Below the pieces are notes generated by a model. It had not been told where the DNA came from. It did not search any database and was given only the letters and a program-made list of their open reading frames with translations. Below are positions 2,203 to 47,043 of a stretch of DNA of 64,000 nucleotides, in pieces. Made by a program: the position numbers and the translations under genes. Source of the stretch: Azolla caroliniana (taxonomy: Eukaryota; Plantae; Polypodiophyta); the NCBI GenBank assembly GCA_043228905.1, contig JBHGNT010000005.1, positions 24,676,001-24,740,000 of the forward strand. Direction: 5' to 3'. Within the stretch, counting starts at the first letter, position 1, and the number at the start of each line of letters is the position of its first letter.

Positions 2203-3569
2203 CGAATATGGAGCCATCACTCTTATGTTTCAGATGTTCAGTCGTGGCGCGTCGATACAATTAGAGAGGCAAAAGATCCTGTCAGTGTGGTTGGATCGGT
2301 ATGCTCCAATCCTAAGCTTTAACTCTTATGTTTCACATGTTCAATGGTGGCACATAAGCCGAACAACAACATCTTAGTAAGTATGATTCAAATTGCAACT
2401 TCGTAATCCTTTTTTGGTTTTTGAAACAGTTAGATTGGCGTAGTGGAAGCGTGGTGGGACCATAACCCACAGGTGCCAGGATCAGAACATGGCTCGAATA
2501 TAAACCATGCGTTGGAATCTTGAACCGTCGTTCTTATGTTTCACAAGCTCAGTTGTCGAGTGTTAACAATACAACGACCTCTTACTAGGTACGATCCAAA
2601 TGGCAAAGAGGTAATTGTCTTTAGGTTCTTCACAGAATTTGAGTGGCGTAGTTGAAGCGTGGTGGGCCTATAACCCAGAGGTTCCAACATCGAAACCTGC
2701 CTCTGATATATAGCCTACGTTGGTGTGGTTGAATCAATACCCTTGAATCCAGAGCCGTCACTTTTATGTTTAGTATGTTTCGTGGTGGTGCCCCGTCTAA
2801 ATAGCAAAATCTTAATCGGAACAATCAAAGAGGCAAGAAGAGTGTGTCAGTGTGGTTGGATCGATATGCTCGAATCCTAAGCTTTCGCTCTTATGTTTCA
2901 CATGTTCCATGGTGGTGCCTTGTCTAAATAGCAACATCTTAATCGGTATGATCAAAGAGGCAACAACATGTGTCACTGTGGTTGGATCAATATTCTCGAA
3001 TACGGAACCGTCGTTCTTATGTTTTAGATGTTCAGTGTTGGTGTGTCGGCCATACAACAACATCTTAGTAGGTATGATCCGAGTGTCAAAGTGGTAATCA
3101 TTTTTTCGTTTTCCAAAGAAGAAGAGTGGCGCAGTGGAAGCAAGGTGGGCCCATAACCCATAGGTCCTAGGATCGAAACTTGGCTTTGATATAAAGAGTT
3201 TGTTGGTGTTGTTGGATCTATAGCCTTCAAACCCTAATTGTTTAGTAGTGGCGTGTTGGCAATACAACAACTTCTTAGTAGGTATAATCCGACAACCAAA
3301 GCGGTAATTCTTTTTAGGTTCTTCATAGAATTTGAGTGGTGCAGTGGATGCGTGGTGGGCCTATAACCCAAAGGTCTCAACATTGAAACGTGCCTCTGAT
3401 ATATAGCCTACGTTTATGTGGTCGAATCGATATCCTTGAATCCCGAGCCGTCGCTTTTATGTTTCGTATGTTCTATGGTGGTGCCTTGTCTAGATAACAA
3501 CTTCTTAATTGGTACGATCGGAGAGGCAACAACATGTGTCACTATGGTCGGATTAATATGCTTGAATAC
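2203..3569 (+). repeat. tRNA-iMet-derived tandem array, segment 1 (4 tRNA-like copies at ~2429, 2637, 3120, 3330)
   Basis: Recurring GAGTGGCGCAGTGGAAGCGTGGTGGGCC(C/T)ATAACCCA..GATCGAAACC..CTCTGATA separated by conserved spacers (GCTCTTATGTTT, ATACAACAAC.TCTTAGTAGGTA). Confidence 0.9.
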
Positions 3570-6500
3570 TGTTGAGAGACAAGCTCAACATCGGCCGGAT
3601 CGGCTGAAGAAGCCGAGGACCGGATCGGTTAGGCCGAGTGCGTAAACCGGGAGGTCGTTAGGAAAGATATTCCGTGAGGAATATATTTGGGAGTTAGTGT
3701 AGGAGCTCTTGATGAGCATTGAAGTACTGTCAGTACTTCAGTCAGTCCTTCTAGGACTTGTATAAAAGTGTTCACTGAGCACGTCTTATGTACAGATAGG
3801 AGTATTATTGTTGAATATATTTTTTGTGTCTTCTCTCTCACTCTCTCTGTCTCTCCTGCGTATACCGTGTAAACTCAAGCTCTCCATTGAACCTGAGTTT
3901 CCTTCCTTCTGTTCGGTCTTCATACCTGCTTCCGCACGCTACTTTTTACATGGTATCAGAGCACGAGGGTTGAGAACCTCTCTGCAGCCGACATAGCTTG
4001 ACGAAGAAGAACGAGAAGAACGATGGATAGAGGCATGGCGAGCTCGCTTCCAACAGAGAAGCTCGACAGAACCAACTATGCGTCTTGGTCCTACAAGATG
4101 CACCAGTACCTGCTCGGGCATGGCTACTGGAGTTATGTCGAAGGAGCTAATGACGCGGCACCCGAATCGACGCATAGAGACTTCCCGTCGTGGGAGCAAT
4201 CGGCAAGCAGGGTATTGTACTGCTTCGCGTCGTGTGTGGGCGAACAACTATTGAGCTATGTTCGGGATGCAAAGACGCCGAAGGGTGCGTGGGAAAATAT
4301 GAAGAAGATTTTCGCCGCGAGCACCACAGCCAGGAAGCTTTAGCTTCGACAGGAGTTGAGCAACCTACGACAACGCGACTTGTCGGTGGCGGACTATACC
4401 TCGAAGATCAAGGATATCTGCGACTCCCTCGCCTCCATAGAGGTGAACATCGAGGAGAGCGAGATGGTCCAGATCTGTCTCGGAGGTTTGGCGTCGAAGT
4501 TCGGAGCGTTCCGAACGGCTGTGTGTACCTGGGAGAATACGCCGTCCTTCTTTGACTTACAGTCAATGCTCCTGGTAGAGGAGAACCACGCGGGTGCGTC
4601 TACAAGCATGCACACCGACAACAAAATGCTGTACACGGAGGGAGATAGGCCCCGTGGACGTGGAGGACGAGGCGAGTCGACGCACAATGGAGGCGGCCGA
4701 CGAGATCAGGGAAGAAGGCACTGAAGTGATGCCGACAGTAACTCCGGACCCTTCGGAAATAGGGGGAGTCGAAGCGATGAGAACCGGCAAGGGAAGTCCA
4801 TCGCGGAGTGCTGGTACTGTGGCAAGAAAGGCCACAGGGAAAGTAAGTGCTGGAAGAAGTGCACCGATTCGGAGAGAACTGGTTCCGGGAACGGCTCCAG
4901 ACATACCGACAAGGGAAGTCGGCAACAATCGCACTACGCCGAAGACTCCGGGAGAGCCGGAGAAGGGACTGCCTTCGTGACAAGACACGAAGCAAACTCA
5001 ATGATACAGACCACCCCGAGATCGGACGAGGTGTGGTACGTAGACTCCGGCGCATTAAACCACATGACGAGCCATAAGGAGTGGTTCTCGTACCTTGAAA
5101 AACCGATACAACCTGGAGTAGTCGCAACTGGAGACGACACTTCGCATCCGATCGCGAATGTCGAAGAAGTTCCCCTTAGCCATGTCGGGCAGAAAGGGAA
5201 ACTCATGAACATGCTGCACGTCCCGACAATCACGAAAAACTTGGTCTCGGTCGGACAGATCGTCGACCAAGGGATGGAGGTTCGATTTACACACCTCGGG
5301 TGCTTCATTGAGGAAGAAGGCCATGTGATTGCGCAAGGGCGCAGAGACGGGAGGATGTTCATCCTCGACTCCACTGACGGCGGCACCGCAATGTTCGCGA
5401 AGGGACAAAAGACCGAGTCGGACATCGACTTGTGGCACAAGCGGATAGGCCATGTCAACCACCAACGGCTTCAAGATCTGCAATCGAAACAGGTAGTATT
5501 CGGATTGCCCAAATTTAGTGGCCGAAAGGCACAAATTTGTGAAGCCTGCCAACTCGGGAAGCAACACCGACTTCCTTTCCCAAACGAGCGAAACCGGAGC
5601 CGGAATAAGCTCTACCTTATACACTCTGATGTATGGGGGCCGACACAAAACGTTAGTCTTGGCGGGAGCCGATATTTCGTCTCCTTCATCGACGACCACA
5701 CACGGCACACGTGGATCTACCTCATTGAGAGGAAGAGCGAAGTCTTCAACTGTTTCCGGGACCTCAAAGGGTTCGTGGAAACGGAAACGGGATGAAAGAT
5801 CAAGTGCCTGTGGTCGGATGGCGGGAAAGAGTACTTTTCCAGTCAATTCAACGGTTACCTACAACAAATGGGAATTCGTCGCGAATTCAGTTGTAGATAC
5901 ACGCCGGAGCAGAACGACGTGGCCGAGAGAAAGAATCGGTTAGTTGTGGAAGTGGCACAGGCAATGCTGGAGGAGAAGAGCTTGCCCAAGTTCTACTGGG
6001 CCGAGGCGGTAAGGACCGCGGTATACATCCAAAACCGGATCGGAGACAAAGTGTCAGCGCACGAGCTATATTTCGGAACGAAGCCGAACTTACGACACTT
6101 GAGGGTGTTCGGTAGCATTGCGTATGTGCATGTACTGAAGGAGAAAAGGAGGAAGTTGGACGCAAAGGCCGAGAAATGCATCTTGGTCGGTTACTCGGAC
6201 GAGTAGAAGGGTTATAAGTGCTATAACCCTCGCACCAAACAAGCGCGTGTCAGCCGCGACGTTGTGTTTGACGAGTCCGCGTCCTGGTACCAGCCCCTGA
6301 CTCCGAACCCCGACTCCAATCCGAGCTCTGACAATGAGGTCAGCGAGGCCGAGATGCCTCCGGATGAGCCCGAAATCGAGACCCGCGACGAGAGTCCGAT
6401 TTCACTCCGGTTAAGTGGACCGATTGGACGACTGAGTCGGTACGACCAGTCCGATGAAGAGCCGGCGAGTAGTGGAGACTCGGCCGTGCATTCCCCGCGC

Positions 6501-7928
6501 AAGAAGCCGAGGAGACGGCTTACCCGCAAAGAGAAAGGGAAGAAGAAGGTGTCGAATTCCGGCACGAATAGGAACGATTCAGACCGACGCGAGTCCGACT
6601 CCGAGGGAACCGGTGACGGGTCTTTAAAGGTGAAGAACGCGTCGACCGAGAAGGCCTCGACATCGGCTAATGTGAGATTACGCCGATCTACCCGCCAGAA
6701 GAATCCTGTTTTGCGGTTCGGATACAACGAGTACATGGCGCATCATTATGCGTACATGACCCGTGTAGCGGAAGTGCGTGAGCCGGAGAGCTACGCAGAA
6801 GCGGCTAAAAACGTGAACTGGCGTGCCGCGATGGAGGAAGAGATGCATGCATTGGCGGAGAACGAGACCTGGGACCTGGTTGACGCACCAACAGGGGTAA
6901 AACCGATCGGGTGTAGGTGGGTGTACAAGGTCAAGTACAACACCGATGGCTCTGTTAACCGGTACAAGGCTCGGCTAGTGGCAAAGGGCTACGCGCAGAA
7001 ACACGGAATCGACTACGATGAGACGTTTGCGCTGGTCGCGAAAATGACGACTGTCCGTGTTTTGCTCGCAGTAGCTGCGGCGAAGGGGTGACACTTACAT
7101 CATATGGATGTAAAGAATGCGTTCCTGCAAGGTGACCTTGAGGAACAAGTGTACATGGTACAACCCCTCGGATTTCACTCCAGAACGAACTCCTCGGCAG
7201 TATGCCGACTGAAGAAGTCCCTTTATGGACTGAAGCAAGCCCTGCATGCATGGAACGCGAAGATCACGCAACAACTGCGTCGGATGGGCTTCATCACGAC
7301 AAAATCAGATTCTTCCCTGTTCATCCGGAAAGGTCGACTTGGACCGGTTAGTATTTTACTATATGTTGATGACTTGGTCATCACCGACGTTGACCTAGGT
7401 GAAATCTACCGCGTGAAGCTCCAGCTTGCGGCATCGTTCGACATGAAGGATCTGGGGGACCTTCATTACTTCCTCGGGATCGAAGTGATTCGTACCCTCG
7501 AAGGCATATTGATCAGCCAACGTCATTACGTGTTGAATATGCTCTTCAAGCTCGGGATGGCCGACTGTAAGTCCGTCTTGACTCCTCTGGACAGAACCAT
7601 CAAGCTTCGTCCCGATACGGGAAAGGAATGCGACCCAACGAGGTTCCGACAAATTGTCGGAAGCCTCATATACTTGACCATCACCCGACCCGACCTTAGT
7701 TATCCGCTCGGGGTGATCAGTCAGTTCATGGCGCGACCTACCGAGGAGCACCTTCAGTGTGCGCAACGCGTACTTCGGTATGTAAGCGGCACTAAGGACC
7801 GCGGACTGCTATATCGGACCGGTGCAACCGCGCAGTTAGTCGGCTACACCGATGCTGATTGGGCTGGCAACGCTGCCGATCGCCGATCCACGTCTGGATA
7901 CGCGTTCTCCCTCACGCTACTTTTTACA
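3570..7928 (+). mobile_element. Ty1/copia element B1, decayed; RNase H and most of the 3' LTR deleted; 5-bp TSD AATAC
   Basis: 5' LTR 3570-3950 (TGTTGAGAG...TTTTTACA). PBS TGGTATCAGAGC at 3951-3962. Last 16 bp of the LTR (CACGCTACTTTTTACA) reappear at 7913-7928. AATAC at 3565-3569 and 7929-7933. Confidence 0.93.
4023..7912 (+). pseudogene. copia gag-pol pseudogene (several premature stops)
   Basis: gag (KLDRTNYASW, CWYCGKKGH..KC), PR (WYVDSGALNH), INT (LWHKRIGH, CEAC, HSDVWGP), RT (DVKNAFLQG, LLYVDDL) and the start of RNase H (GYTDADWAG), split across ORFs 4023-8027. Confidence 0.9.
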
Positions 7929-10037
7929 AATACGGAGAAGTCGCTCTTATGTTTGAGATCTTCAATGTTGGCACGTCAGCCATACAACGACATCTTAGTG
8001 TGTATGATCCGAGCATCAATGTGGTAATGCTTTTTTCATTTTCCAAAGAATCATAGTGGCGCTGTGGAAGCGTGGTGGGTCCATAATCCACAGGTCCCAG
8101 AATCAAAACTTGGCTCTGATATTTAAAGAGTTTGCTGGTGTGGTTGGACCTATAGCCTTGAATCCCGAACAATCGCTCTTATGTTTCACATGCTTAATTG
8201 TGTTGTGTAGGCAATACAACGACTTCTTACTAGGTATAATTGGAATGGAAAAATGGTAATCGTTTTTAGGTTCTTCAGAGAATTTGAGTGGCGTATTGGA
8301 AGCATGATGGGCCTATAACCCAGAGGTCCCAAAATCGAAACGTGGCTATGATATATAGCCTGCATCGGTGTGGCAATACAACGACTTCTTACTAGGAACA
8401 ATTCGAACGGCAAAATGGTAATCATTTTTAGGGTCTTCATAGAAATTGAGTGGCGTATTGGAAGCATGATGGGCCTATAACCCAGAGGTCCCAAAATCGA
8501 AACGTGGCTTTGATATATAGACGATGTTGGTGTGGTCGAATGGATAGCCTTCAATCCCTCGACGTGGCTTTTATGTTTCGTATGGTCCGTGGTGGTGCCT
8601 CATTTACATAACAACTTCTTAATCGGTATGATCGGAGATGCAAAATCGTGTGTTTGTGTGGTTGGATCACTACAGTCGAATCCTGAGCCGTCGTTCTCAT
8701 GTTTCACATGTTGAGTGGTGGCACGTCAACTAAACAACAACATTTTAGTAGGGATGATGCGAGCGGCAAAGTGGCAATCCTTTTTGGGTTTTCCAAAGAA
8801 TCAGAGTGTTGCAGTGGATGCGTGGTGGGCCCATAACCCACAAGGCCCAAGATCGAAACCTAGCTCTTATATATACACTGCGTCGGTCTGGTCGGATTCA
8901 TAGCCTCAAATCCCAATCCATCGCTCTTAAGTTTCCCATGGTCCATTGAGGCACCTCGCCAAAGAACAATTGCATAGGCAGTATGATTGGTGTAGCAAAT
9001 TCGTAGCACGATCATCCTTCTTTGGTTTTTAATAGTAACTGGCGATGTGGTGGGGCCATAATTGACAGGTCCCAAGATCGAAACCTGCCTTTGATATAAA
9101 CCGTGCATTGGTGTGGTCGGATCTAAAGCCTCGAATCCTGAGCCGTCGTTCTTATGTTTCACATGTTCAGTGGCGGCGTGTCGGTAATACACCAACTTCT
9201 TTCTAAGTACGATCCGAGCGTCAAATTGGTAATTCTTTTTAGGTTCTTCACAAAATTTGAGGTGCGTAGTGGAAGCGTGGTGGGCCTACAACGCACAGGT
9301 CGCAACATCGATACTTGCCTCTTATATATAGCTTGTGTTGGTGTTGTTGAATCGATACACTTCAATCCCGAGACGTCGCTTTTATGTTTCGTATGTTCCG
9401 AGGTGGTTCCTCATCTAAATAGCAACTTTTGAATTGGTACGCTTAGAGAGGCAAAAAGAGTGTGTCAGTGTGGTTGGATCAATATGCTCGAATCCTGAGC
9501 TTTCGTTCTGATGTTTCACATGTTTAGTGGTGCCGTGTCAGCCAAAAAATAACATCTTAGTAGGTATGATCCAAGTGGCAAAGTGGTAATCTTTTTTTGG
9601 TTTTCGAAAGAATCAAAGTGGCGCAATGGAAGTGTGGTGGGCCCATAACCCACAAGTCCAGGATCAAAAGCTAACTGTGATATAAACCGTGCATTGGTCT
9701 GGTCGGATTTATAGCCTCGAATCCTGAGCCGTCGCTCTTATGTTTCACATGTTTAGTGGTGGCGTGTCGACAATACAACAACTTGTCACTAGGTACGATC
9801 CGAGTACCAAAGGGGTAATTCTTTTTATGTTCTTCACAGAATTTGAGTGGTGTAGTGCAGGCATGGTGAACCTATAACTCATAGGTACCAACATTGAAAC
9901 CTTCCTCTAATATTTAGCCTACGTCGGTGAGGTTGAATCGATACCCTGGAATCCCGAGCCATCGCTTTTATGTTTCATATGTTCCGTGGTGGTGCCTCGT
10001 CTTAATTGCAACTTCGTAATAAGTACGATCGGAGAGG
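7929..10037 (+). repeat. tRNA-iMet-derived tandem array, segment 2 (~8 copies)
   Basis: Same unit; tRNA-like copies start at ~8050, 8282, 8444, 8800, 9040 (partial), 9255, 9612, 9841. Confidence 0.9.
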
Positions 10038-11782
10038 TGTAAAGAATCGAGAGAGAGAGAGAGAGAGAGAGAACAAGAAACTGTATACTACTTCCAACAA
10101 CAACATAGTTACAAAGGGTTGGTTTAAATACCAAGTAGGCTAGGGTAAGTGCCCTTTCAACTATTTACAAAACTAACATGGTGTGTCCATGAGCTAGTGT
10201 GAAACCTATCTCTATGGGAAGTTGAGTTCGACTCTCAACACGCCCCTTCGAACACAACTTCCATATGTCGAAAAGTTGTTTTGGTTTGGTCTTCGAAGTA
10301 CTTCGATTCGAATGAATCGGCTTTCGACTTTCATCATCCTACTCATCCGAACTCTTGTTCGGCTTTTCGGCTTCATGCTCCTTGTTCGGCTCGAGTGCTG
10401 CCATCGTACTTTGAATCATCTGGTCGTCTTCGATCAACTAATCAACTACTTCCGTGTTGGCTGCCTCCATGCCGCATGTTGTACTCCCCCTCAAGCTCGG
10501 CAATGTGGATATCGTGACCAAGGTCGTATGAGAATTGCCCAAGCTTGTTGACGCCTAAGGCCTTCGTAAAGATATCAAAAACTTGAAGGTGCGTATTGAT
10601 GTGTTGTAGCTCAATTTCGCCAGCCTGAACGCGCTCGCGAATGAAGTGGTTGTGCACTTTGATGTGTTTAGTCTGCGCGTGAAATACGAGGTTGCGTGCC
10701 AGGTAGATACTGCTCATGTTGTCACAATATAAGCAAATCAGATCTTTGATGGGTACGCCCAGATCCTTTAGTACACACTTCAGCCATACGACTTTGCATG
10801 CAACTACTGCCGCGCCCCTGTATTCAGCCTCTGTGCTCGATAGTGCGACTGTTGATTGCTTCTTGCTGCTCCATGAGATCGCTCTGCTGCCGAGGGAGAA
10901 GACGAATCCGGATGTCGATCATCCATCGTCCTTATATCCGGCCTAGTCCGTGTCTGTGTACCCTTCGAGTTGAATAAGCGTGTTCAACTTGTACATAATG
11001 CCGTAACCATCGTACCACTGACATACCGAAGTATCCTCTTAGCACAATCGAGATGGAGATTTCCTGGGTTCTACATGAATTGGCTAAGTAGGCCAACAGA
11101 ATAGCTGAGGCCAGGTCGTGTTGTGGTTAGGTAGATGAGGCCGCCGATCAATTGGCGATATTGAGTTGGCTCACACTCGGCTGTGCTGGAATTGACATCG
11201 AGCTTGAGATTACGGTCAAGAGGAGTAGACACAGGTTTGTGCTCTGTCATTCTGAACTTGTAGAGTAAGTTAAGAACGTAGTGCTGTTGAGAGATCAGGA
11301 TCCCAACTGGTGTCCGAATTACATCGATGCCAAGGAAGTAATGGAGCTCCTGCATATCTTTCATTTCAAATTTGTTGGATATGAGTGATTTATGGATGTA
11401 CAGGGAGTTGTCTGATTTCGACATTTGAAATCCAATTTGGTGAAGATAGTGCGTGATATTTGAATGCCAAGCACGCGGTGCTTGCTTAAGACCATAGATT
11501 AGCTTCTTGAGTCGACACACGGCTTTTGGATGAGTACACGATTCAAAGTTGGGTGGTTGTACCACGTACACCCCCTCTTCCAATTCGCCTTGAAGAAAGG
11601 CGTTCTTGACGTCCATCTGGTGGAGGTGCCACCCTTTCGCTGTTGCGAGTGCGATCACGGTCTGCACCGTTGTCATCGTTGCCATTGGGGCAAAGGTCTC
11701 TTCGTAGTCGACTCTATGTTTTTGTGTGTATCCCTTCGCAACGAGTTGTGCTTTGAAGCGATTTACGGAGCCGTCGGCATTG
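10038..11782 (-). mobile_element. copia element C, 3' part (3' LTR ~10038-10240, RNase H, RT)
   Basis: LTR TGTAAAG...CTCAACA containing (GA)n. ORFs 10442-10717 (RNase H C-terminus, HAQTKHIKVH) and 11071-11892 (RT, DVKNAFLQG). Interrupted at ~11783 by another LTR. Confidence 0.85.
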
Positions 11783-13589: not shown

Positions 13590-13669
13590 TGTTGGGGACA
13601 AGGTCATCAGTGTGGAAGAACAAACAACATCTGTTATGTTGAAGGACTTGTGTATGAGAATAAAACAAG

Positions 13670-13724
<55 letters not shown>

Positions 13725-26560: not shown

Positions 26561-26890
26561 CCATTGCCATCATTCTATACTCAGTTGCCGCTACTGTCCA
26601 GTCCCGGATTGCTTCCACATTTCGATTTGACGGAGTTCACTCATCCAACAGCAAAATTCTACACTTAGTTGTCGCCATTGGTCGGTCTTGGATCGCCTCC
26701 TCAACTGTTCGATCCAACGGAGTGAACTCCTCTACTGTTCGGTCTTGGATTGCAATAACTTTTCTGTCTATTGATTATTTTGTGTATTGTTGTGTCTAAT
26801 ATTGTGTATTGTGGAATATTTTTGTTTATTGTTGTTGCCCATAGCTATCTTAAATACTTGTTTTTTTTTCTGGAAATTTAGGGTTTTAAC

Positions 26891-34700: not shown

Positions 34701-35961
34701 CCATAACCCAAAGTCCCAGGATCGAAACCTGGCTTTGATATAATGACTTTACTCGTGTGGTCAAATGTATAGACTCGAATCCGAAACCGTCGCTACTATG
34801 TTTGACATGCATAGTAGTTGCATATCGGCAATACAACAACTTCTTAGTAGGTACAATTCGAGAGCCAAAGTGGTAATTCTTATTAGGTTCTTCATAGAAT
34901 TTGAGTGGTGGACTGAACGCGTGATGGGCCTATTACCCACAAGTCCGAGTATTGAAATGTGCCTGTGATATATAGCCTACATCGGTGTGGTCGAATCGAT
35001 ACCCTTGAATCCTGAGCCGTCGCTTTTATGTTTTGTATGTTCCATGCTGATGCTTCGTCTAAATAGGAACTTCTTAATCGCTACGATCACAGAGGTATCA
35101 ACATGTGTCAGTGTGGTCGTATGGATATGCTTGAATACAGAGCCATCGCTCTTATGTTTCAGATGTTTAGTGCGGGTGCGTTGGCCATACAACAACATTT
35201 CATTTTTTCGTTTTCCAAAGAATTAGAGTGGCGCAGTGGAAGCATGGTGAGCCCATAACCCATAGGTTCCAGGATCGAAACTTGGCTCTGATATAAAGAG
35301 TTTGTTGGTGTCGTCGGATTTATAGCCTCGAAACCTGAACCGTCGCTCTTATGTTTGACATGCTTAGTAGTTGTGTGTCGGCAATACAACAACTTCTTAG
35401 GAGGTACAAAACAAGAGGCAAAGCGGTAACTCTTTTTAGGATCTTCATAGAATTTGAGTGGCGCACTGGACGCGTGGTGGGCCTATTACCCACAATTCAC
35501 TTTATTGAAATGTGCATGTGCTATATAGCCTACATCAGTGTGGTCGAATCGATCACCTTGAATCCCGAGGTGTTGCTTTTATGTTTTGTATATTCCGTGT
35601 TGATGCCTCGTCAAAATAGTAACTTCTTAATCGGTATGATCGCAGAGGCATCATTACAACAACTTCTTTGTAGGTACAAAACGAGAGCCAAAGCGTTAAC
35701 TCTTTTTAGGATCTTCATAGAATTTGAGTGGCGCACTGGACGCATGGTGGGCCTATAAGCCATAGGTCACAATATTGAAATGTGCATGTGATATATAGCT
35801 TACATAGGTGTGGTCGAATAGATCATCTTGAATCCCGAGCCGTCGCTTTTATGTTTTGTATGTTCCGTGCTGATGCCTCGTCTAAATAGTAACTTCTTAA
35901 TTGGTACGATCACAGAGGCATCAATATGTGTCAGTGTGGTCGGATTGATATGCTCGAATAC
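31768..35961 (+). repeat. tRNA-iMet-derived tandem array, segment 4 (~16 copies incl. partial)
   Basis: Same unit; copies e.g. at 31899, 32361, 33056, 33282, 33513, 33860, 34067, 34316, 34670, 34899, 35222, 35452, 35722. Confidence 0.9.
33860..33931 (+). tRNA. tRNA-iMet (CAT), near-intact copy or pseudogene
   Basis: Differs from 24990-25061 by two G->A changes (D-stem mismatch, variable loop). Confidence 0.55.
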
Positions 35962-38448
35962 TAAAGTGTTAAGAAACGCATGTAACCATTCATGCGGGAA
36001 ACGTGAACAGCTAAAAGCCCTGTGTATATAAAGGGCAGGAATCTTCTTTAAGAGGTAGCGTGTAATTTCAGAGTATAGAGCGTTTTTCTAATAGAATACT
36101 ATCTTCTCTGATCTCTGATCTCTGTGCATATCTTTCTCTATTATGTACTGTTAATCGTAAGGGTGTAGGCGTAAGCGCGGATCCCATCGCACTTCCTAAG
36201 GAGTTCGGTTGTAGCCGTCTCCCTTATACGCTACTAGGATACGAGAGAGGATCCCATTATGATTTACGGTACGAAGGTTCTATTCCTTGTAACACGGTCA
36301 CCTTGAGGTGTACCTCGAAGGACTTACTGTAGACAGTGTTCCTAATTGGTAACACGTTGGGCATGCCTGGTGATCTGTGATTTCTCGCAGACGAACAACG
36401 AGGGATGGATGTCTAGCCGTAAACGACCCAGAGAACCGACCCGACAAGTCCGACCACTCACGAGGTCCATCACACGCCAGATAGAGGAGCGTGCAAGGCA
36501 AAAAGCTTGCCTTAGTGATATCTGTCCGGATGACAAAATCTACTCCACGCTCACCCAACACCGCAACGTCAAGCAGGAAGTTCTGTCACCACACGAGTAC
36601 CGTGATCTTTCGCTACCCTCCATCACATCCGGAATGGCCTTCTCCTACCCACGCTTTAATGCCGAAACAGACTCCGCAAGCCACATCCGGCTATTCTTGA
36701 ACGTTTGGAACGCGAATCACAAGGCGCAGTGATTCCAGAAGAGGAAGTGCACCAATAAAAAATGACAGAGTTTCATTTAACTCTGGATGGTAGAGCCACG
36801 TTTTGGCATTCACAAATGGATCTAACAACAATCCACACCTTTGACCAGTTGTAGTCAACATTTCTGCGATTTTTTCATCGGAGGGTACCTCAACGCGAAA
36901 TCATCAAGTAGTTCTACACGATCAAGCAACTGCCAACATAATCGGTCACGGACTTTAGCTTAGGCTTCCAAAATCTACGACGGAAATTAGAACGAGCCCC
37001 AACAAATGACGAGGCTAGGGAGATGTTTGTGGCAGCCCTACAGAGGCCTATCAGGACGATGCTCAACACAAGTAGTGTGAAAGGGGAAACAACCAATCTG
37101 GTCATCGAGCGAGCATTACAGCTTGAGTTGGAGGAAGAAGTGGAAGGATTTTCTCTATCCGCATTAATACAGGCATTCCCTCAGGACGAGGAACGCCACT
37201 TTCGTCACGCTATTCAATGCACAATTTGCCTCAAATCGGGGCATTCCGCGGTGGAATGCAATATGTGAATTCACTTCCCAATTTGTCACTCAAAGGCACA
37301 CACGGTCGAGCAACATGAGTACAATATGCTGAACAAACCTACGCCCACAGTACGACGCGTAGAACCACAGCGACCAGCTCGCTGAAATGATCCAATGCAC
37401 CAAGAGGAACGACCCTGATGTACGGATCGAAATCCATGTGATGACCAGCACTACAACAATCACCAAAATAACAACGATTCCGATGAAGAGGAGCCAGAGG
37501 ACGAAGAATATCGGGGCAAGCACCAATATAATACAGGAGGGCGTCGTTACGACAACCAACGTTCGGCGAATAGGCGTGCTAGATTCAATGGGCCGCGCTC
37601 ACAAGGAAAGCATTGACAGTATAGGGACCAACGACGTTACGACGAAAGTTCGGAGGATGACCAGCGCCAGGAGTCACGCAGGGACTAATCGCAAACACCC
37701 CGGAATTCCCGGAGAATGCAATAAGACCAGGAGGAGCCATTGACGCTTGGGGATAGGAATCCGCCACCAGTTGCAAAGAAAGGAGAGTCCAACGTACATT
37801 GTTTTGCCTGCCAACAGCCCGAACACTACGCAACTCAATGTCCACTGCACAAGGGCAAAGGACCAGTCGTAAATACGATTACGGCGGAAGTTCAGCAGGT
37901 TAAGACACGGCAACAAACAAAGAATGTTGACTGGGCTATACAAGATGAGGTACGCAAAGCGGCCCAAGCATGGGTAGAAAAAGCAAACGCGGCAAATATG
38001 ACGTGTATGCAGCAGGAGTCTGCAACCAATGTTGGGTCACTAGAAGAGAACATCATATCCTCGAACCCCATATGGCAAGCACTGGCAAGCTACGAAATAC
38101 TTATGGAAAAACTCCTTCAACTAGTTCCACGATTTCGGCAAGCCGGGGAGGGACTGTTACACCCTGGTTACATCACCTTTATTCTCTGTCCCTTCGGACA
38201 GAGATACACATCGATTTCCCAGACAATAAATCTTTCCTACCTAGTATGTTTACATGAGCCGACCTATCCCCAATTATGTACTCCTCATCAATACTTCTGC
38301 CCGCGTGTAAGGGCCAGTTCACACTCTCCATTCACTGATTCCTCCTAGCGACAGTTTTCTCCACAACAGCGTGGGAAAGGCGTTCTCACGGTCACCTTGA
38401 GGTCTACCTCGAAGGACTCCGAGTAGACAGTGCTCCTACTCGGTAACA
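35962..38448 (+). mobile_element. Ty3/gypsy-like element remnant (5'-truncated LTR to 36354, decayed gag, 3' LTR end 38386-38448); no pol seen
   Basis: LTR homologous to the 39738-40207 solo LTR, ending GGTAACA. gag-like text (HIRLFLNVW, LDGRATFW) and zinc knuckles CTICLKSGHSAVEC and CFACQQPEHYATQC. CACGGTCACCTTGAGG...GGTAACA is repeated at the 3' end. Confidence 0.7.
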
Positions 38449-40310
38449 CTGCATAGAATTGGAGTGGCGAACTGAACGCGTGGTGGGACTATTACCTACA
38501 AGTCCGAGTATTGAAACGTGGTTATAATATATAGCTTACATCGGTCATACAACGACATCTTAGTCGGTATGAACCAAGAAATCGTTTTATCATTTTCCAA
38601 GGAATCAGAGCGGCGCAATGGAAGTGTGGTGGGCCCATAACCATAGGTCCCAAGATCAAAACCTGGCTCTGATATAAAGAGTTTGTTGGTGTTGTCGGAT
38701 CTATAGCCTCTAAACCTGAACCGACGTTCTAATCTTATGTTTGACATGCTTAGTTGTGGCGTGTCGGCAATACAACAACTTCCTAGTAGGAACAATTCGG
38801 GAGCCAAACGGTTTTGTTTTTAGGTTCTTCATAGAATTTGAGTTTTGTTTCTAGGTTCTTCACAGAATTTGAGTGGCGTAGTGGACATATGGTGGCTCAA
38901 TAACCCATAGGTTCCAACATTGAAATGTGCCTCTAATATATAGCCTACATCGGTGTGGTCAAATCGATACCCTTGATACCTAAGCCGTCGCTATTATGTT
39001 TTGTATATTCCGTGTTGGCGCGACGGCCATACAACAACATCTTAGTAGGGATGATCCGAGCCTCAAAGTGGTAATCTAATATAAAGAGTTTATTGGTGTA
39101 GTCGGATCTATAGCCTCAAAACCCGAACCGTCGGTCTTCTGTTTGACATGCTTCGTAGTAGTGTATTGACAATACAACAACTTCTTAGTAGGTACAATTC
39201 CAAAGCTAAAGCGGTAATTCTTTTAAGGTTCTTCAAACAATTTGATTGGCACAATGGATGTGTGGTGGCACTAACCTGCATAGCAACTTCTTAATTGGTA
39301 TAATCGGAGAGGCAACAATATGTGTCATTGTGGTCAGATCGATATGCTCGAATATGGAGCCGCCGCTCTTATGTTTTAGATGGTCAGTGTTGGCATGTCG
39401 GCCATACAACAACATCTTAGTAGGTATGATCCGAGCGTCAAAGTGGTAAAACTTTTTTTATTTTCGAAAGAATCAGAGTGGCGCAATGGAAGCATGTTGG
39501 GCCCATAACCCACAGGTCCTAAGATCAAAACCTGGCTCTTATACAAAGAGTTAGTTGGTGTCGTCAAATTTATAGCCTCGAAACCCAAACCGTCTTTCCT
39601 ATGTTTGACATGCTTAGTAGTGGCGTGTCAGCAATACAACAACTTCTTAGTACGTACAAAACGAGAGCCGAAGCGTGGTGGGCCCATAATCCATAGGTCC
39701 TAGGATTGAAACCTAGCTCAAGACTTTACTCGTGTGGTGTTGTCCGTCGGAATAGTAACCGACGAACAGGAGCGCAGAAACATAGAATATAGTAAAAACG
39801 TAACGCATGTAAGAGTTCACGCGGGAAGCGTGAACAGCTAAAAGACCCTATGTATATAAAGGGCAGAAATCCTCTGTAAGAGGTAGCATGTAAATTTGGG
39901 TGCATAGAGCGTTATCTTAATAGAGTGCTATCGTCTCTAATTCTTGTGCATATCTGTGGTTAATCTACTGTGTGTCTGTGATTCTTGGTGGCGTATTGTA
40001 ATCGTAAGGGCGTAGGCGGGAGTGCGAGTGTTGTTACTAGTGCACTGTCTGAGGAGTTCGGTTATAGCCATCTCCCTTATACGCTACTACGATACGGGGT
40101 GGTATCCCATTACATATTACGGTACGACGGTACCATTCGTTGCAACGCAATCACTTTGAGGTCTAGGTCGAAGGACTGACCGTAGACCGCGTTCCTAATT
40201 GGTAACATGTGGTCAGATGTATAAACTCGAATCCCAAACCGTCGCTCTTATGTTTGTCACACATAGTAGTTGTGTGTCAGCAATACAACAACTTCTTAGT
40301 AGGTATAACC
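38449..40310 (+). repeat. tRNA-iMet-derived tandem array, segments 5-6 (interrupted by solo LTR)
   Basis: Copies at ~38458, 38604, 38867, 39240 (partial), 39472, 39670 (partial). Confidence 0.88.
39738..40207 (+). mobile_element. solo LTR (gypsy-like family of 35962-38448), TSD TGTGG
   Basis: TGTTGTCC...GGTAACA, 470 bp, TATATAAA box. TGTGG at 39733-39737 and 40208-40212. Confidence 0.9.
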
Positions 40311-42683
40311 GAGGAATATGCATGGTCGGGTCTTCGGACCTAGTTTTCCTCTCCGGTCCTTAGCTACATGCACATATGCAAGACACCCGAATACCTTCAG
40401 ATGCCGGTAGGACACTTCCTTACTGGTCTAGACTCTCTGTAGCGTGTCTCCGTCCAAGGGCTTGAGGGTGATCTGTTTATCACATATGTCACCGTCGACA
40501 GTGCCTCAGCCCAAAACTTCTTGGGTAGTTTTGCACGCGCCAGCATACTCCGGACCCTCTCCATTATGGTTCGGTTCATCCTCTCGGCCAGCCCGTTTAG
40601 TTCCGGCATCTTCGGCACGGTAAACTCGAGTCGGATTCCCTTCGAGCGACAATACTCCTCGAACTGCCCCCGGTATTCACCTCCGTTATCTACTCAAACT
40701 GCCTTTAGCTTCCAGCCGGTTTCTCTTTCCACTCTCGCGTGGAGCTCTTTGAAGACGGATAACACCTGATCTTTCGTCTTCAACGGTGTGGCCCACAGCT
40801 TCCGGTTGTGGTCATCTATGAACGTCACGAAGTACTGCGATCCGGCATGTGACTTTGTGTCCACTTGACATACATCAGTATGCACCAACTCCAATGGTGC
40901 ATTACGTCTCATCGGTGGCCTCGATCGGAAGGAGGTCCGGTTTTGTTTACCAGCCAGACAATCAGTGCACTTCTCCAAGTGCACGTTCTTCACTGGAATG
41001 AGGTTGTCGTCTGCAAGCCTCTTCATCCCCTTCTCGCTCATGTGACACAGCCTCTTGTGCCACAGCTCACCGGCAGTGTCGGATGCCACGTTCACTTCTT
41101 CCGGGCATATGCGGGCATTCATCAGGTACAATGTGTTTACCTTCCGGGCCCGAGCCACAATTAGGCTCCCTTTGTTGAACTTCATAACACCATTCCGGAT
41201 GCTACCCGTGTAGCCTTCATCATCTAGCCGACCGGCTGATATCAGGTTCAGACGAACCTCCGGAACGTGTCGGACATCCTTCAGCAGCAGCTTGCATCCG
41301 GTTGGTGTTGTCAACCACACATCTCCTATGCCGACAATTCGGCATGTACCTTCATTCCCCATCCGGACACAGCCGTGATCACCGGCTGTGTAGGATGAGA
41401 AGTATTTCCGGTCCGGGGTGAGGTGGAACGACGCTCCGGAGTCGACCACCCAGGTCATCTCGTCGCCGGCAAGGTTTAGCTCACTCTCCTCGGTGATGAG
41501 CATCAACTCTTCTTCACTTGCCGTCGTTCCCTTCCGGTCCGGCCCCCTCCGGTCTTTACCGTTTCGGTCCGGTGTCCGCTTCGAATCGGTACCATCGGTT
41601 TCCTTGTCTTTTCGGAAGTGTTGACAGTTCTTCTGGAAGTGTCCCGGCTTGCCACAATAGAAGCAGGTAGGCCTCCCCCTTGACTTTGACCGTGTCCCCG
41701 ACTTCTCCCGATTCTGGGGACTACGGTTCCTTTGTCTTCCGCATTCCGATTCGGTAAGGAGCACTTTGGAGTCGGAGCTCGTATCCTTATCTTTCCGACG
41801 CACCTCCTCATCTAGCAAGCTCGACTTCACTCTTGCTAGGGATAACCATTTCCCTTCCAGCCCGGCGTTGCCCAAAGTGACAACCAACGTCTCCCAGCTA
41901 TCCGAGAGGGAACCGCACAGGAGCAGCGCTAGTACCTCATCGGCGAGGGGTACTTCCAATGATGTTGCCTGGTGTATCAACCCCTGGAAGGCATTCATGT
42001 GCTCCGCCATGCTGGAGCCATCTTGGTACCGGAGTCTTACTAGCTTCCGGAATACAGAAACCTGGTTGACAACATTTTTGTTCTGAAACATAATGCCAAT
42101 CTTCTCCCAGAGCTCATGAGCCTTGCTCTCTTCATTGAAGTTGTTGTATAGGCTCATGTCAATGAAGCACCGTATGTACGCCGTTGTCTTCATGTGCATC
42201 ACCTCCCATATCGTGGCGTCGATTTTGTCTGGTCTCTTGTCCCCGAACTGAACCGGCAACCAAAGATCTTTAACCACGAGCATGTCCCTCATCTTCGACT
42301 TCCACACGGAATAGTTGGAGCCGGTGAGCTTGAACATGCCTCCCAACAATTCGTCCATTTTCTGTGTCGTTTCGCTCTGATACCACTTTGTCAAGGAATA
42401 TGCGGACTAGTCTCCGGCAACAACCGAAGAGTGAATCACTTTGTACAGTCGAACACAGAAGAAATGAAGAATGGAGGTAAGTGCACAAACATAAAGAAAA
42501 AAAAAAGAGAATACACAGGATATTAACGTGGAAAACCCTGAGAGGGAAAAACCACGGGAGTCCACAAACTCCAAACTATCACTATATCACAATGATTACA
42601 ACAGTGAGCGCATGGAGGCAACGACCTCGTGCTCACAATCTTCGCCACAGGCGGCGGTTACAACAGAGGCAATGACCTCTCTA

Positions 42684-42727
<44 letters not shown>

Positions 42728-43095
42728 CACGGTTGCTCTCTCACAATCGTGACAACGACAATGACAACCTATACACTAAGTTTGCCCTAAGTCATATTTA
42801 TACTAAAATGACTTTTCGGCTATTTACAAATATAGCCCCGATGGACTCTCAAAAACATATTTACGAATATGTCCCTTCATCCGGTGAGCACTCCTCACCG
42901 GGCCTGCATCATCCGGCGCTTGCCGGGCACTCATCATCCGGTTCTCACCGGGTCTTCCATTTCCGGGTACTCCTCATCCGGTTCTCACTGGGTCTTCCAT
43001 TGCCGGGTACTCCACATCCAGTTTCGGCCTCGGCCGAGTTTGCTCATCAACACTGTTCTTCTCACTTCCCATCCAGAGGGACCTGTTTCCTAACA
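40305..43095 (-). mobile_element. Ty1/copia element G (Tnt1/Tork-like), 5' half: LTR 42389-43095, PBS, gag-PR-INT; 3' half deleted
   Basis: PBS TGGTATCAGAGCG on minus strand at 42373-42385. LTR TG..CA with CCCGTGGTTTTT..GGGTTTTCCACGTTAA. Sequence breaks off in integrase (CIFLGY) at ~40305. Confidence 0.9.
40694..42358 (-). CDS. copia gag-protease-integrase polyprotein (truncated)
   Basis: KLTGSNYSVWKSKM, CFYCGKPGHFQKNC, WVVDSGASFH, LWHKRLCH, VHTDVCQ. Confidence 0.85.
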   Translation of the reverse strand: MDELLGGMFKLTGSNYSVWKSKMRDMLVVKDLWLPVQFGDKRPDKIDATIWEVMHMKTTAYIRCFIDMSLYNNFNEESKAHELWEKIGIMFQNKNVVNQVSVFRKLVRLRYQDGSSMAEHMNAFQGLIHQATSLEVPLADEVLALLLCGSLSDSWETLVVTLGNAGLEGKWLSLARVKSSLLDEEVRRKDKDTSSDSKVLLTESECGRQRNRSPQNREKSGTRSKSRGRPTCFYCGKPGHFQKNCQHFRKDKETDGTDSKRTPDRNGKDRRGPDRKGTTASEEELMLITEESELNLAGDEMTWVVDSGASFHLTPDRKYFSSYTAGDHGCVRMGNEGTCRIVGIGDVWLTTPTGCKLLLKDVRHVPEVRLNLISAGRLDDEGYTGSIRNGVMKFNKGSLIVARARKVNTLYLMNARICPEEVNVASDTAGELWHKRLCHMSEKGMKRLADDNLIPVKNVHLEKCTDCLAGKQNRTSFRSRPPMRRNAPLELVHTDVCQVDTKSHAGSQYFVTFIDDHNRKLWATPLKTKDQVLSVFKELHARVERETGWKLKAV

Positions 43096-43263
43096 TAATC
43101 AGAGAGGCAACATGTGTCACTGTGGTCGAATCGATATGTTCGAATACGGAGCATGCGCTCTTATGGTTTAGATGGTCAGTGTTGGCATGTCAAGCATATA
43201 ACAACATCTTAGTAGGTATGATCTGAGCGTCAACATGGTAAAACTTTTTTTATTTTCCAAAGA

Positions 43264-43335
43264 ATCAGAGTGGCGCAGTGGAAGCGTGGTGGGCCCATAA
43301 CCCACAGGTCCTAGGATCGAAACCTAGCTCTGATA
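43264..43335 (+). tRNA. tRNA-iMet (CAT), fully paired variant
   Basis: Identical to the 24990 copy except the T-stem CTAGG/CCTAG, which still pairs. Confidence 0.75.
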
Positions 43336-45119
43336 TAAAGAGTTTGTTGGTGTCATCGGATTTATAGCCTCGAAACTCGAACAGTCGCTCTTATGTTTGA
43401 CATGCTTAGTAGTGCCCTGTCGGCAATACAACAACTTCTTAGTAGGTACAAAACGAGAGCCAAAGCGGTAACTCTTTCTAGGATCTTCATAGAATTTGAG
43501 TGGTGCATTGGACGCGTGGTGGGCCTATAACCCACAGGTCGCAATATTGATATGTGCCTGTGATATATAGCCTACATCGGTGTGGTCAAATCGATCACCT
43601 TGAATCCCAAGCCGTCACTTTTATGTTTTGTATGTTCTATGTTGATCCCTCGTCAAATTAGTAACTTCTTAATCGATATGATCGCTAAGGCATCAACATG
43701 TGTTAGTGTGGCCGGATCGATATGCTCGAATACGGAGTCATCGGTCTTATGTTTAAGATGTTCAGTGATGGCGCGTCAACTATACAACAACTTCTTAGTA
43801 GATATGATCCGAGCCTCAAAATGTTTCGTTTTCCAAGGAATCAAAGTGGCACAGTGGAAGCATGGTGGACCCATAAGCCACAACTCCTAGGATTGAAACC
43901 TGGCGCTGATATAATGACTTTATTCGTGTGGTCAGATGTATAGACTCGAATCCCGAATCGCTACTCTTATATTTGACATGCATAGTAGTTGCGTGTTGGC
44001 AATATAACAACTTCTTAGTAGGTACAATCCGAGAGCCAAAGCGATAATTCTTTTTAGGTTCTTCATAGAATTTGAGTGGCGCATTGAACGCGTGGTGGGC
44101 CTATTACCCACAGGTCCAAGTATTGAAACGTGTCTGTGATATATAGCCTACATCGGTGTGGTTGAATCGATACCCTTGAATCTCGAGTCGTCGCTTATAT
44201 CTTTCGTATGTTCCGTGTTGATGCCTCATCTAAATAGCAACTTCTTAATCGATACGATCACAGAGGCATCAACATGTGTTAGTGTGGTCAGATCGATATT
44301 CTGGAATACGGAGCCATCGCTCTTATGTTTCAGATGTTTAGTGCGGGCGCGTCGGCCATACAACGACATCTTAGTAGGTATGAGTCGAGAAATCCTTTTT
44401 TCGTTTTCCAAAGAATCATAGTGGCGCAGTGGAAGCGTGGTGGGCCCATAACCCATAGGTCTCAGGATCGAAACTTGTCTCTGATATAAAGACATTGTTG
44501 GTGTGGTCGGATCTATAGCCTCTACACCCAAACTGACGTTCTTATCTTATGTTTGACATTTTTAGTAGTGGCGTATCGGCAATACAACAACTTCTTAGTA
44601 GGTACAATTCGAGAGCCAAAACGGTTTTGTTTTTAGGTTCTTCATAGAATTTGAGTGGCTTAGTGGACATATGGTGGCTCAATAACCCATAGGTCCCAAC
44701 ATTGAAATGTGCCTCTGATATATAGCCTGCATCAGTGTGGTCGAATCGATACCCTTGATTCTTGAGATGTCGCTCTCATGTTTTGTATATTCAGTGATGG
44801 CGCGACGGCCATACAACAACAGCTTAGTAGGGATGATCTGAGCTTCAAAGTGGTAATCTTATATAAAGAGTTTATTGGTGTGGTCGGATCTACAGCCTCG
44901 AAACCCGAACCGTCAGTCTTATGTTTGGCATGCTTCGTAGTGGCGTATAATCGGAGAGGCAACAACATGTGTCACTATGGTCGGATCGATATGCTCGAAT
45001 ACGGAGCCGGCGCTCTTATGTTTTAGATGTTTAGTGTTGGCATTTCAAGCATACAACAACATCTTAGTAGGTATGATCCAAGCATCAAAGTGGTAAAACA
45101 TTTTTTATTTTTCAAAAGA

Positions 45120-45191
45120 ATCAGAGTGGCGCAGTGGAAGCGTGGTGGGCCCATAACCCACAAGTCCTAGGATCGAAACCTAGCTTTGATA
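45120..45191 (+). tRNA. tRNA-iMet (CAT), near-intact variant
   Basis: T-stem CTAGG/CCTAG, one G-U in the acceptor stem, G->A in the variable loop. Confidence 0.55.
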
Positions 45192-47043
45192 TAAAGAGTT
45201 TGTTGGTGTCGTTGGATTTATAGCCTCAAAACCCGAACCGTTGCTCTTATGTTTGACATGCTTAATGGTGGTCTGTCGGCAATACAACAACTTCTTAGTA
45301 GGTACAAAACGAGAGCCAAAGCGGTAAGTCTGTTTAGGATCTTCATAGAATCTTAGAATCTGAGTGGCGCACTGGACGCGTGGTGGGCCTATAACCCACA
45401 AGTTGTAGTATTGATATGTGCCTGTGATATATAGCCTACATCGGTGTGGTTGAATCGATCACCTTGAATCCCAAGCCGTCACTTTTATGTTTTGTATGTT
45501 CCGTGTTGATGCCTCATCAAATTAGTAACTTCTTAATCGGTATGATCGTTGAGGCATCAACATGTGTCAGTGTGGTTGTCAATTATACAACAACGTCTTA
45601 GTAGATATGATCCGAGCCTCAAAGTGGTAATCCTTTTTTTGTTTTCTAGGGAATCAGAGTGGCGCAGTGGAAGCGTGGTGGGCCCATAAGCCACAAGTCC
45701 CAAGATCGAAACCTAGCGCTAATATAATGACTTTATTCGTGTGGTCAGATGTATAGACTCGAATCCCGAACCGTTGCTCTTATATTTGACATGCATAGTA
45801 GTTGCATGTTGGCAATATAACAACTTCTTAGTAGGTACAATCCGAGAGCCAAAGCGGTAATTCTTTCACTGAACGCGTGGTGGGCCTATTACCCACAGGT
45901 CCGAGTATTGAAATGTGCCTGTGATATATAGCCTACATCGGTGTGGTCGAAATCGATACCCTTGAATCTCCAGCCGTCGCTTTTATGTTTTGTATGTTCC
46001 GTGTTGATGCCTCATCTAAATAGCAACTTCTTAATCGGTACGATCGCAGAGGCATCAACATGTGTCAGTGTGGTCGGATCGATATGATCGAGCCGTCGCT
46101 TTATGTTCCGTGCTGATGCAAGAATGGTTCCAGTCACATGGCATGAATATAAATGCTGAAATGCAAGAATGGTTCCAGTCACATGGCATGAATATAAATG
46201 CGATGTCCTGTTTCATTATAGCCTGGATTGTCCAGACTTGGATATGATGAAAGTGGAAAAGAATTGCATCAACCAAAATTTGATCATATAAGAATATGGT
46301 CCAGCTCCACAATGCCACTTGGGTGAAAGAAGGCTTATTACAAGGCTCTTTTCTTCACTTGACAGCTGATAAATTTATCAAGTTATTTTGAATGGATTCA
46401 CATATCTTATATCTTAGTGTGAAACTGCAGCCCAAGACCACTTCAGATCAGTCAGAGATGGAGACAAGAAGATCATGCAAAGCTCTAGAGAAAGAAAATT
46501 ACGAATTGTAAGCATCCCATCTTGTAAACCAGTTGTGAATAACAAAAGACTTATGGCTTGCCATACCAAAAAATGAGCATGTTTGTAAGTCCAAAAGAAG
46601 TGTTCTGTAGATCATGGCAACACCCAGTGGGGTCTTGACTGATCCCTTGGGCCCAAAATCTTCATGTCCAATACCTGTGTACAAAAATACATATGATCAA
46701 CCTTCAGCCTCCCATGATCAAGGTAGGGTTAGAATTCAATATTGTTCTTGCAGAAAAAGGTGCTTCCTAATCATAGGTGCATATTGAAAGTAAGGTACTC
46801 ATTTATTTGAAAGGTTCAAAGATGGGTAGCTCCATTTCCTGGGATCCCAAAAGACTCTAGAAAAGGGTTAGCCCTCACTAAAAATCGCGTTCCCTTAATC
46901 CAGAACCTAAAAAGGAAAAATTTCACAAATTGAACAAAGATGAGCATGACACTGGCAGGGAAAAAGTCTCACTATTTGGATATATTTTCTTGCCATCGAC
47001 ATATATATGTCACTCCACGAGACCGATAAGGAATTCAGCTAAG

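What the first reader, a model, noticed from the sequence alone, without database searches (positions are those of the whole stretch)
2203..46115. A satellite array built from the initiator tRNA-Met gene
Seen: once the transposons are removed, about 14 kb of the window is a tandem repeat whose ~560-bp unit holds two tRNA-iMet-derived 72-mers plus a third, homologous spacer with no tRNA. I count about 45-50 tRNA-like copies, all on the + strand. One is essentially perfect (24990-25061) and several are nearly so (33860, 43264, 45120). Most differences look like C->T/G->A at CG/CHG sites. Established: tandem tRNA arrays are known (Arabidopsis tRNA-Pro and Ser-Tyr-Tyr clusters, Entamoeba tRNA arrays), but I know of no large array of the initiator tRNA in plants. 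Inference: a tRNA-iMet gene with its flanks was amplified into a methylated heterochromatic satellite that may retain a few active Pol III templates.
Basis: partly seen in the sequence, partly recalled or inferred. Interest (0 to 1): 0.85.

Follow-up and report, generated by a model that had tools for sequence, protein, structure and literature searches.

The report
Ancient decaying initiator-tRNA gene array
About 47 head-to-tail copies of the initiator tRNA gene lie between retrotransposons in a plant that is likely a fern; most copies are broken and three are structurally intact and likely working, and related genomes carry the same kind of array, so it is likely an old gene family that keeps duplicating and decaying rather than a dead satellite.

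Summary
There are 47 tRNA-iMet-like copies in 2203-46115, all on the + strand, and none in 20 shuffled windows. They form a 13.3-kb array cut by 30.6 kb of insertions. The ~576-bp unit is a triplicated ~230-bp monomer: one tRNA (A) kept, one (B) dead, one deleted.

The label 'satellite' fits poorly. Blocks are at most 89% alike, and rough depth suggests only tens of kb in this genome.

The A consensus equals copy 24990, whose 72 bases recur exactly in five outside contigs, each itself an array. Three have homologous spacers only ~60-64% alike. A was constrained on internal branches; B was not.

Best reading: an old tandem tRNA-iMet gene family under birth-and-death evolution, with methylation-type decay and three likely working genes (24990, 43264, 45120). 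The host is likely a fern. Expression was not shown.

Tandem tRNA clusters are known, and a six-gene iMet cluster is catalogued in Marchantia. I found no fern case in ten literature searches, and the scan had not noted this on other DNA.

The parts
2203..3569 (+). Array segment 1
3570..7928 (+). Copia LTR element inserted in spacer c, with a 5-bp target duplication (AATAC); primer site at 3951 matches this tRNA's 3' end
7929..10037 (+). Array segment 2
10038..24567 (-). Nested copia stack; no target duplication at its outer ends; one internal LTR pair (17476-17873 / 22221-22618) is 97% identical
24568..25799 (+). Array segment 3
24990..25061 (+). tRNA-iMet(CAT) gene equal to the A consensus and to outside loci; full cloverleaf, intact A and B boxes, CAA at -6..-4, first T4 run at +117; likely working
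25800..31767 (.). Insertion with transposase-like frames and 83-bp and 20-bp tandem repeats; likely a Sola-type DNA transposon (label from earlier notes and recall, not tested)
31768..35966 (+). Array segment 4, with A copies 33283 (no broken pair, but an A-box change and a mis-folded minimum-energy structure) and 33860 (one broken D-stem pair)
35967..38448 (.). LTR-element remnant
38449..39737 (+). Array segment 5
39738..40207 (.). Solo LTR with a 5-bp target duplication (TGTGG) in spacer a
40208..40313 (+). Array segment 6 (spacer a only)
40314..43097 (-). Truncated copia element; iMet primer site at 42375
43098..46115 (+). Array segment 7, the most regular stretch (TRF period 576)
43264..43335 (+). 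tRNA-iMet copy with a compensatory T-stem pair change; cloverleaf and boxes intact; likely working
43494..43565 (+). Example of a B-type dead copy (TAT at the anticodon position, broken B box, no cloverleaf)
45120..45191 (+). tRNA-iMet copy with the same compensatory pair, one G-U pair and one loop change; cloverleaf and boxes intact; likely working
47045..47569 (+). Decayed iMet copies with a second spacer type, 70-73% alike to the spacer of outside array L001

Best explanation
This is a tandem array of initiator-tRNA genes that is likely an old gene family evolving by birth and death: a working gene with its flanks was likely duplicated head to tail many times, most copies then decayed, likely through cytosine methylation, and a few were likely kept by selection. 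Shown: a ~230-bp monomer (72-bp tRNA plus ~158-bp spacer) was triplicated; the third tRNA and the end of spacer b were lost in one deletion; copy B gained 11 fixed changes including its B box; the resulting ~576-bp unit makes up the array, which transposons later split. Shown by sequence comparison: the A lineage stayed unchanged while its spacers drifted. [quoted passage not shown] They would give precursors with 3' trailers of about 120-290 nt, cut off by RNase Z. Inferred: the host is a fern, probably a small-genome water fern.
For: A consensus has 0 of 72 changes against copy 24990, B has 11 of 72 (Fisher p=6.5e-4), while spacer branches of the same triplication changed at 9.7-20% of sites. 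Context-matched divergence is 0.63 of spacer expectation for A (132 vs 210.5) and 0.98 for B (198 vs 203). On trees built from one flank, A changes at the held-out flank's rate on terminal branches (ratios 1.06, 0.94) but not on internal ones (0.19, 0.34; p=0.0016, 0.046; 13 of 20 units); B shows no significant drop (12 of 21 units). The exact 72-mer occurs in 5 metagenome contigs, each with 2-10 tRNA-like pieces in one orientation. Spacers of L002, L003 and L005 are ~60-64% identical to the window's (z 3.5-7.7). Spacers before two identical genes differ at 46 of 169 (L002) and 22 of 169 (L005) sites. Organisms B and C hold array pieces with few differences; organism E holds the tRNA with L002-type flanks. 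Four copia primer sites in the window match this tRNA's 3' end.
Against: Expression was not shown. With the tree built from both flanks the internal-branch deficit is weaker (p=0.063). The trees rest on ~150 nt, copies are not independent, and gene conversion from a working gene elsewhere could mimic constraint. In A stems, disruptive G>A changes (26) are about as common as tolerated C>T changes (31), so most copies now decay neutrally. A perfect copy among 20 has a 2.3% chance under the mean A divergence, which is modest. No T4 run lies near the 3' end of the intact copies, although non-angiosperm land plants have the lowest frequency of such runs (PMC13437025 section 7). Spacers of L001 and L004 are not clearly homologous to the main spacer.
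Confidence: 0.72

Rival explanations
1. A dead tRNA-derived satellite: one amplification of a tRNA-iMet locus into methylated heterochromatin, with the near-perfect copies surviving by chance or through gene conversion.
For: CG/CHG deamination signature; 30.6 of 43.9 kb of the span are insertions; 16 of 20 full A copies have a broken stem pair; terminal-branch decay at the spacer rate.
Against: Low rough copy number; blocks <=89% alike; reduced change on internal branches in A but not in B; identical tRNAs inside homologous arrays whose spacers differ by 36-40%.
Confidence: 0.15
2. A tRNA-headed SINE (tRNA head, ~140-nt body, T-run end) that was later amplified in tandem.
For: The monomer has a Pol III head, an unrelated body and its first T5 run about 140 nt downstream in many copies. 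SINE-derived satellites are reported in reptiles (PMC10702118, search listing only).
Against: The head is a complete tRNA kept identical across genomes while the body drifts. Units abut head to tail with no A-rich tail. All 5 outside loci are arrays, none a single copy. Spacer depth is low.
Confidence: 0.07
3. A dicistronic cassette in which the tRNA promoter drives a functional small RNA in the spacer, like plant tRNA-snoRNA genes (recalled).
For: Long predicted 3' trailer; spacer still recognisable across genomes.
Against: No Rfam family other than tRNA at E<=1 in 43098-47600. Two spacers fold no better than shuffles (z -0.57 and 0.31). Spacers lose CG/CHG sites at the same rate as dead B copies.
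Confidence: 0.04

Closest known systems
Marchantia polymorpha chr5 tRNA-iMet homocluster (Mpo_chr5_2; PMC13437025 supplement 5)
   Same: Same isotype, one strand, regular head-to-tail spacing (6 genes, ~345 bp apart, 1.8 kb).
   Different: Here ~47 copies with a three-part higher-order unit, mostly pseudogenes, split by transposons, and homologous across genomes. The Marchantia sequences were not compared.
Arabidopsis Ser-Tyr-Tyr and Pro clusters; maize Ile cluster (PMC13437025, PMC11700998, PMC12308677)
   Same: Tandem tDNA array with a three-part unit and position-specific copies; methylated in Arabidopsis.
   Different: Those are arrays of many callable genes with uniform flanks (27-28 units). 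Here only 5-9 of 47 copies are callable and blocks are <=89% alike.
5S rDNA under birth-and-death evolution (PMC3123226, PMC3215682; search listings only)
   Same: Pol III gene kept by purifying selection while spacers diverge.
   Different: Different gene; whether those arrays hold a similar share of dead copies was not read.
Xenopus laevis 3.18-kb tRNA repeat with two initiator-tRNA genes (recalled; not found)
   Same: Tandem repeat holding a working and a defective initiator-tRNA gene, as I recall.
   Different: Multi-isotype, homogeneous, animal.

Membership tests
Eukaryotic cytosolic initiator tRNA-Met | CAU anticodon, A1:U72 pair, three G-C pairs closing the anticodon stem, A54 and A60, no intron (hallmarks from my own knowledge) | tested here: met
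   Sequence and fold of 24990-25061; CAT in 20 of 20 full A copies
Eukaryotic cytosolic initiator tRNA-Met | Same sequence conserved in other genomes and complementary to copia primer sites | tested here: met
   Exact match in 5 contigs; 4 primer sites in the window
Plant tDNA homocluster (PMC13437025) | One isotype repeated in tandem with shared flanks | tested here: met
Plant tDNA homocluster (PMC13437025) | At least 5 genes with neighbours within 5 kb (as I read the criterion) | tested here: inconclusive
   Met with Rfam hits (8 of 9 chain from 33283 to 45191); not met with ARAGORN's 5 genes
Plant tDNA homocluster (PMC13437025) | Methylated and mostly silent, sometimes reactivated (shown for Arabidopsis) | not testable with these tools
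   Only the mutation signature is available
Satellite DNA | Head-to-tail tandem organisation | tested here: met
Satellite DNA | High copy number or very long arrays | tested here: not met
   13.3 kb here; about 25-34 kb-equivalents in run X1, a rough figure from summed contig depth; array bins 50-474 against up to 1.2e6 for transposon bins
Satellite DNA | Homogenised units (concerted evolution) | tested here: not met
   Best block pair 88.7%
Satellite DNA | Heterochromatic or centromeric location | not testable with these tools
   No genome held; no ChIP or bisulfite data
tRNA-derived SINE | tRNA-related head with A and B boxes followed by an unrelated body | tested here: met
tRNA-derived SINE | A-rich or simple-repeat tail | tested here: not met
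   Units abut with no such tail
tRNA-derived SINE | Dispersed copies with target-site duplications | tested here: inconclusive
   All copies seen are in arrays, but no whole genome could be searched
Dicistronic tRNA-snoRNA gene | A snoRNA directly downstream of the tRNA | tested here: not met
   No such Rfam hit

The most novel reading that the evidence does not exclude
In this fern lineage the initiator tRNA supply comes mainly from ancient tandem arrays that are re-amplified species by species, reaching hundreds to over a thousand copies in some relatives (about 1,400 raw copy-equivalents in run X12). Such turnover would be the mechanism behind the record tRNA gene counts of water ferns (7,848 in Azolla filiculoides), and the arrays would also supply the primer for the copia elements that break them up.
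Probability: 0.3. Interest if true: 0.65.

Novelty: new variant of a known kind. Interest (0 to 1): 0.42.

Why it matters
Plant tRNA clusters are described almost only from callable genes in chromosome-level genomes, and the cluster survey in PMC13437025 lists no fern among its 31 species. An array in which only 5-9 of 47 copies are callable would largely escape such surveys. It records the life cycle of a tRNA cluster: triplication, loss of two of three genes, re-amplification, methylation-type decay and invasion by transposons. Initiator tRNA is otherwise among the low-copy isotypes. If the host is a water fern, the array offers a testable explanation for Azolla's more than 7,500 tRNA genes, which a 2026 review attributes only loosely to duplication and repeats (PMC13578239). 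It is not a new kind of system.

Tried and rejected
Whole-genome copy count: no genome is held. Expression: no RNA holder listed. Runs X6 (RNA by guess) and X7 (kind unknown) hold contigs over 44.2-46.1 kb, but they are not shown to be RNA and contigs give no strand or level, so I drew nothing from them. The other letters that X6 shows behind 46086 were sought in the window with a 20-base motif and not found. A small RNA in the spacer: no Rfam hit, no unusual folding. B copies as an AUA-reading tRNA: rejected, because the B box and cloverleaf are broken. Assembly artefact: rejected, because contigs of four runs cover array pieces. Intact copies sitting in less decayed flanks: no correlation (Spearman 0.34, p=0.14). 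Targeting of retroelements to a fixed site near the tRNA: junctions fall at different spacer positions, so no support. Naming the host through the closest PPR relatives or the transposase-like frame failed, because those hits carry no organism names. The supplement of PMC12652284, with its lists of tandem pairs that include iMet, could not be read and may bear on novelty. The PlantRNA 2.0 paper is not held, so Azolla's per-isotype counts were not seen. PMC9858662 had no relevant passage.
Full report
Observation. ARAGORN finds 5 tRNA-Met(CAT) genes and Rfam 9 tRNA hits, all on the + strand. A profile search with the consensus finds 47 copies at E<=0.5 in 2203-46115 (43 at E<=1e-5), 4 outside, none on the minus strand, and none in 20 block-shuffled windows. 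The array occupies seven segments totalling 13,292 bp. The other 30.6 kb of the span are insertions: copia elements by Pfam, a solo LTR and a probable DNA transposon. Two insertions have clean 5-bp target duplications and the array resumes in register, so they came after the array.

Anatomy. Five modules recur in the order A-a-B-b-c. A and B are 72-bp tRNA copies; a, b and c are homologous spacers (a/c 120 of 150 aligned bases identical, a/b 94 of 130, b/c 92 of 124). Spacer b lacks its last ~28 bases and c its first 8, with no tRNA between them. So a ~230-bp monomer was triplicated and one deletion removed the third tRNA. The unit is ~576 bp, with many internal deletions and duplications; the best pair of blocks over 300 bp is 88.7% identical. 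Further decayed copies at 47045-47569 have a different spacer.

Identity of the tRNA. Copy 24990 folds as a cloverleaf and has the initiator hallmarks: A1:U72, three G-C pairs in the anticodon stem, A54, A60 and no intron (hallmarks from my own knowledge). Four copia primer sites in the window match its 3' end. The exact 72 bases occur in five metagenome contigs. Position 16 is T in all of these; as I recall, flowering plants have C there, so T16 is this lineage's normal base and not decay. The B consensus differs at 11 of 72 positions, including the anticodon and B box, and two B copies folded do not form a cloverleaf.

Mutation and selection. Differences from consensus run at 18.8% per CG site, 16.5% per CHG site and 6.5% per CHH site for C>T/G>A, which points to past methylation (inference). 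A copies carry 132 differences where spacer rates predict 210.5; B copies carry 198 against 203 (copies are not independent). The A consensus has no change while spacer branches changed at 9.7-20% of sites. Using 13 of 20 A units that have both flanks, with the tree from one flank and the other held out, A changes at the flank's rate on terminal branches (ratios 1.06, 0.94) but at 0.19 and 0.34 on internal branches (p=0.0016, 0.046). B, in 12 of 21 units, shows no significant drop (1.13, 0.68; p=0.86, 0.098). With the tree from both flanks p is 0.063. The templates that were copied thus look like working genes, and most daughters then decayed: 16 of 20 full A copies have a broken pair, and G>A (26) and C>T (31) changes in stems are about equal. 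Copies 24990, 43264 and 45120 keep all pairs, both boxes and the cloverleaf. Gene conversion from a working gene could give a similar pattern and is not excluded.

Likely transcription (inferred). The intact copies have internal A and B boxes, CAA just upstream, and the first T4 run 117, 284 and 292 nt downstream. Pol III would make precursors with long trailers that RNase Z removes (established pathway, my knowledge). Non-angiosperm land plants have the lowest share of tDNAs with a near T4 run (PMC13437025 section 7), so the distant terminator does not exclude activity. Nothing here shows expression.

Copy number and relatives. No genome is held. In run X1 at >=90% identity, bins lying wholly or mostly in the array have summed depth of about 50-474, single-copy contigs 35-44, and transposon bins up to 1.2e6. 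At >=80% the array family sums to roughly 25-34 kb-equivalents; the tool warns that this is no copy number, so I use it only as an order of magnitude. Runs labelled organisms B and C hold array pieces with few differences. Organisms D and E show almost no depth on the spacers but much on the tRNA. In E, 22-23 contigs share flanks that match those of L002 at 28 of 30 and 25 of 30 bases (my count), with about 1,400 raw copy-equivalents, probably inflated by contig overlaps. All five outside loci are arrays: L002 and L005 have 10 tRNA-like pieces each with 2 perfect, L001 has 6 with 1 perfect, L003 and L004 have 2 each. Spacers of L002, L003 and L005 align to the window's at ~60-64% (z 3.5-7.7, at most 1 of 200 shuffles reaching the score). 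L001 and L004 do not align clearly to the main spacer, but L001 matches the window's second spacer type at 70-73%. Spacers before identical genes differ at 46 of 169 and 22 of 169 sites. The array is therefore older than the split between these genomes and is still turning over.

Host. The PPR frame at 48049-50562 has ferns as best named relatives in 7 of 7 segments (46-59% identity), ahead of gymnosperms and a lycophyte; the named set was 61 ferns, 13 gymnosperms and 4 lycophytes, with no moss among the 120 listed of 4234 hits. DNA runs assemble to 281-607 Mb, and Salviniales genomes are at least ten times smaller than those of other ferns (PMC6786969, passages). A water fern such as Azolla is thus likely, but this is inference (about 70%). 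Earlier scan notes also guessed a fern.

Comparison with the literature. Plant clusters are dominated by Pro and Ser/Tyr, with Gln, Ala and Ile in some lineages (PMC13437025 section 10; PMC13578239 section 23; PMC11700998 passages). The one plant iMet cluster among all 46 'Meti' places in supplement 5 of PMC13437025 is six genes in Marchantia. PMC12652284 reports 1-34 iMet genes in 50 species and lists iMet among identical tandem pairs (passages); its supplement could not be read. Azolla filiculoides has 7,848 tRNA genes, explained only loosely. The Arabidopsis SYY cluster is silent in most tissues yet active in root tips despite methylation (PMC12308677, abstract), so methylation does not rule out use. 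Ten searches found no description of a fern iMet array; the library lacks most subscription papers. The scan's notes hold no like finding.

Verdict. It works like known plant tDNA homoclusters and 5S arrays. It differs in isotype at this size, in its three-part unit with two of three genes lost, and in its persistence across genomes with identical genes and divergent spacers. New variant of a known kind; interest 0.42.

Noticed in passing
run X11 (organism D), record 10, laid on window 44433-44486: A 991-nt contig at depth 1196 (other contigs of the run ~18-22) ends in at least 54 bases of tRNA-iMet; loose ends behind the tRNA's 3' end in this run begin with CCA. Possibly a multi-copy retroelement with an unusually long tRNA copy at its primer site.
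   Followed up: no
window 44203-46086; runs X6 and X7: Two small assemblies from different studies look unlike whole-genome DNA (X7 has no depth on the highest-copy transposon bins) yet cover the array's right end, and both leave the window's sequence at 46086 with 56-64 other letters. Could be a long transcript or another haplotype; not shown to be RNA.
   Followed up: partly
L003 1535-2233 and 2840-3574: Two copies of one LTR, 93% alike, sit at the same spacer position a few bases behind successive tRNA-iMet units: either duplication of an insertion or repeated targeting just downstream of the tRNA.
   Followed up: partly
window 25800-31767: Insertion with transposase-like frames (31 unnamed relatives), an 83-bp tandem repeat and a palindromic 20-bp tandem array. 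It resembles the Sola-type elements with a methyltransferase passenger that earlier notes describe in this genome; not checked.
   Followed up: partly
window 48049-50562 (-): Open 837-codon PLS-type PPR frame with an E motif, 1.9 kb from the array; best named relatives are ferns.
   Followed up: partly
window 54435-55262 (+): Frame with a zf-RVT domain, probably the end of a LINE.
   Followed up: no
window 25696, 32132, 32594, 32834, 39244: Five units share one deletion that joins the 5' half of tRNA B to the middle of spacer b, defining a second, shorter unit (~460 bp).
   Followed up: partly
window 46116-46201: A 45-bp perfect tandem pair at the array's right edge; part of it belongs to a repeat that is abundant in organisms A, D and E.
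   Followed up: no
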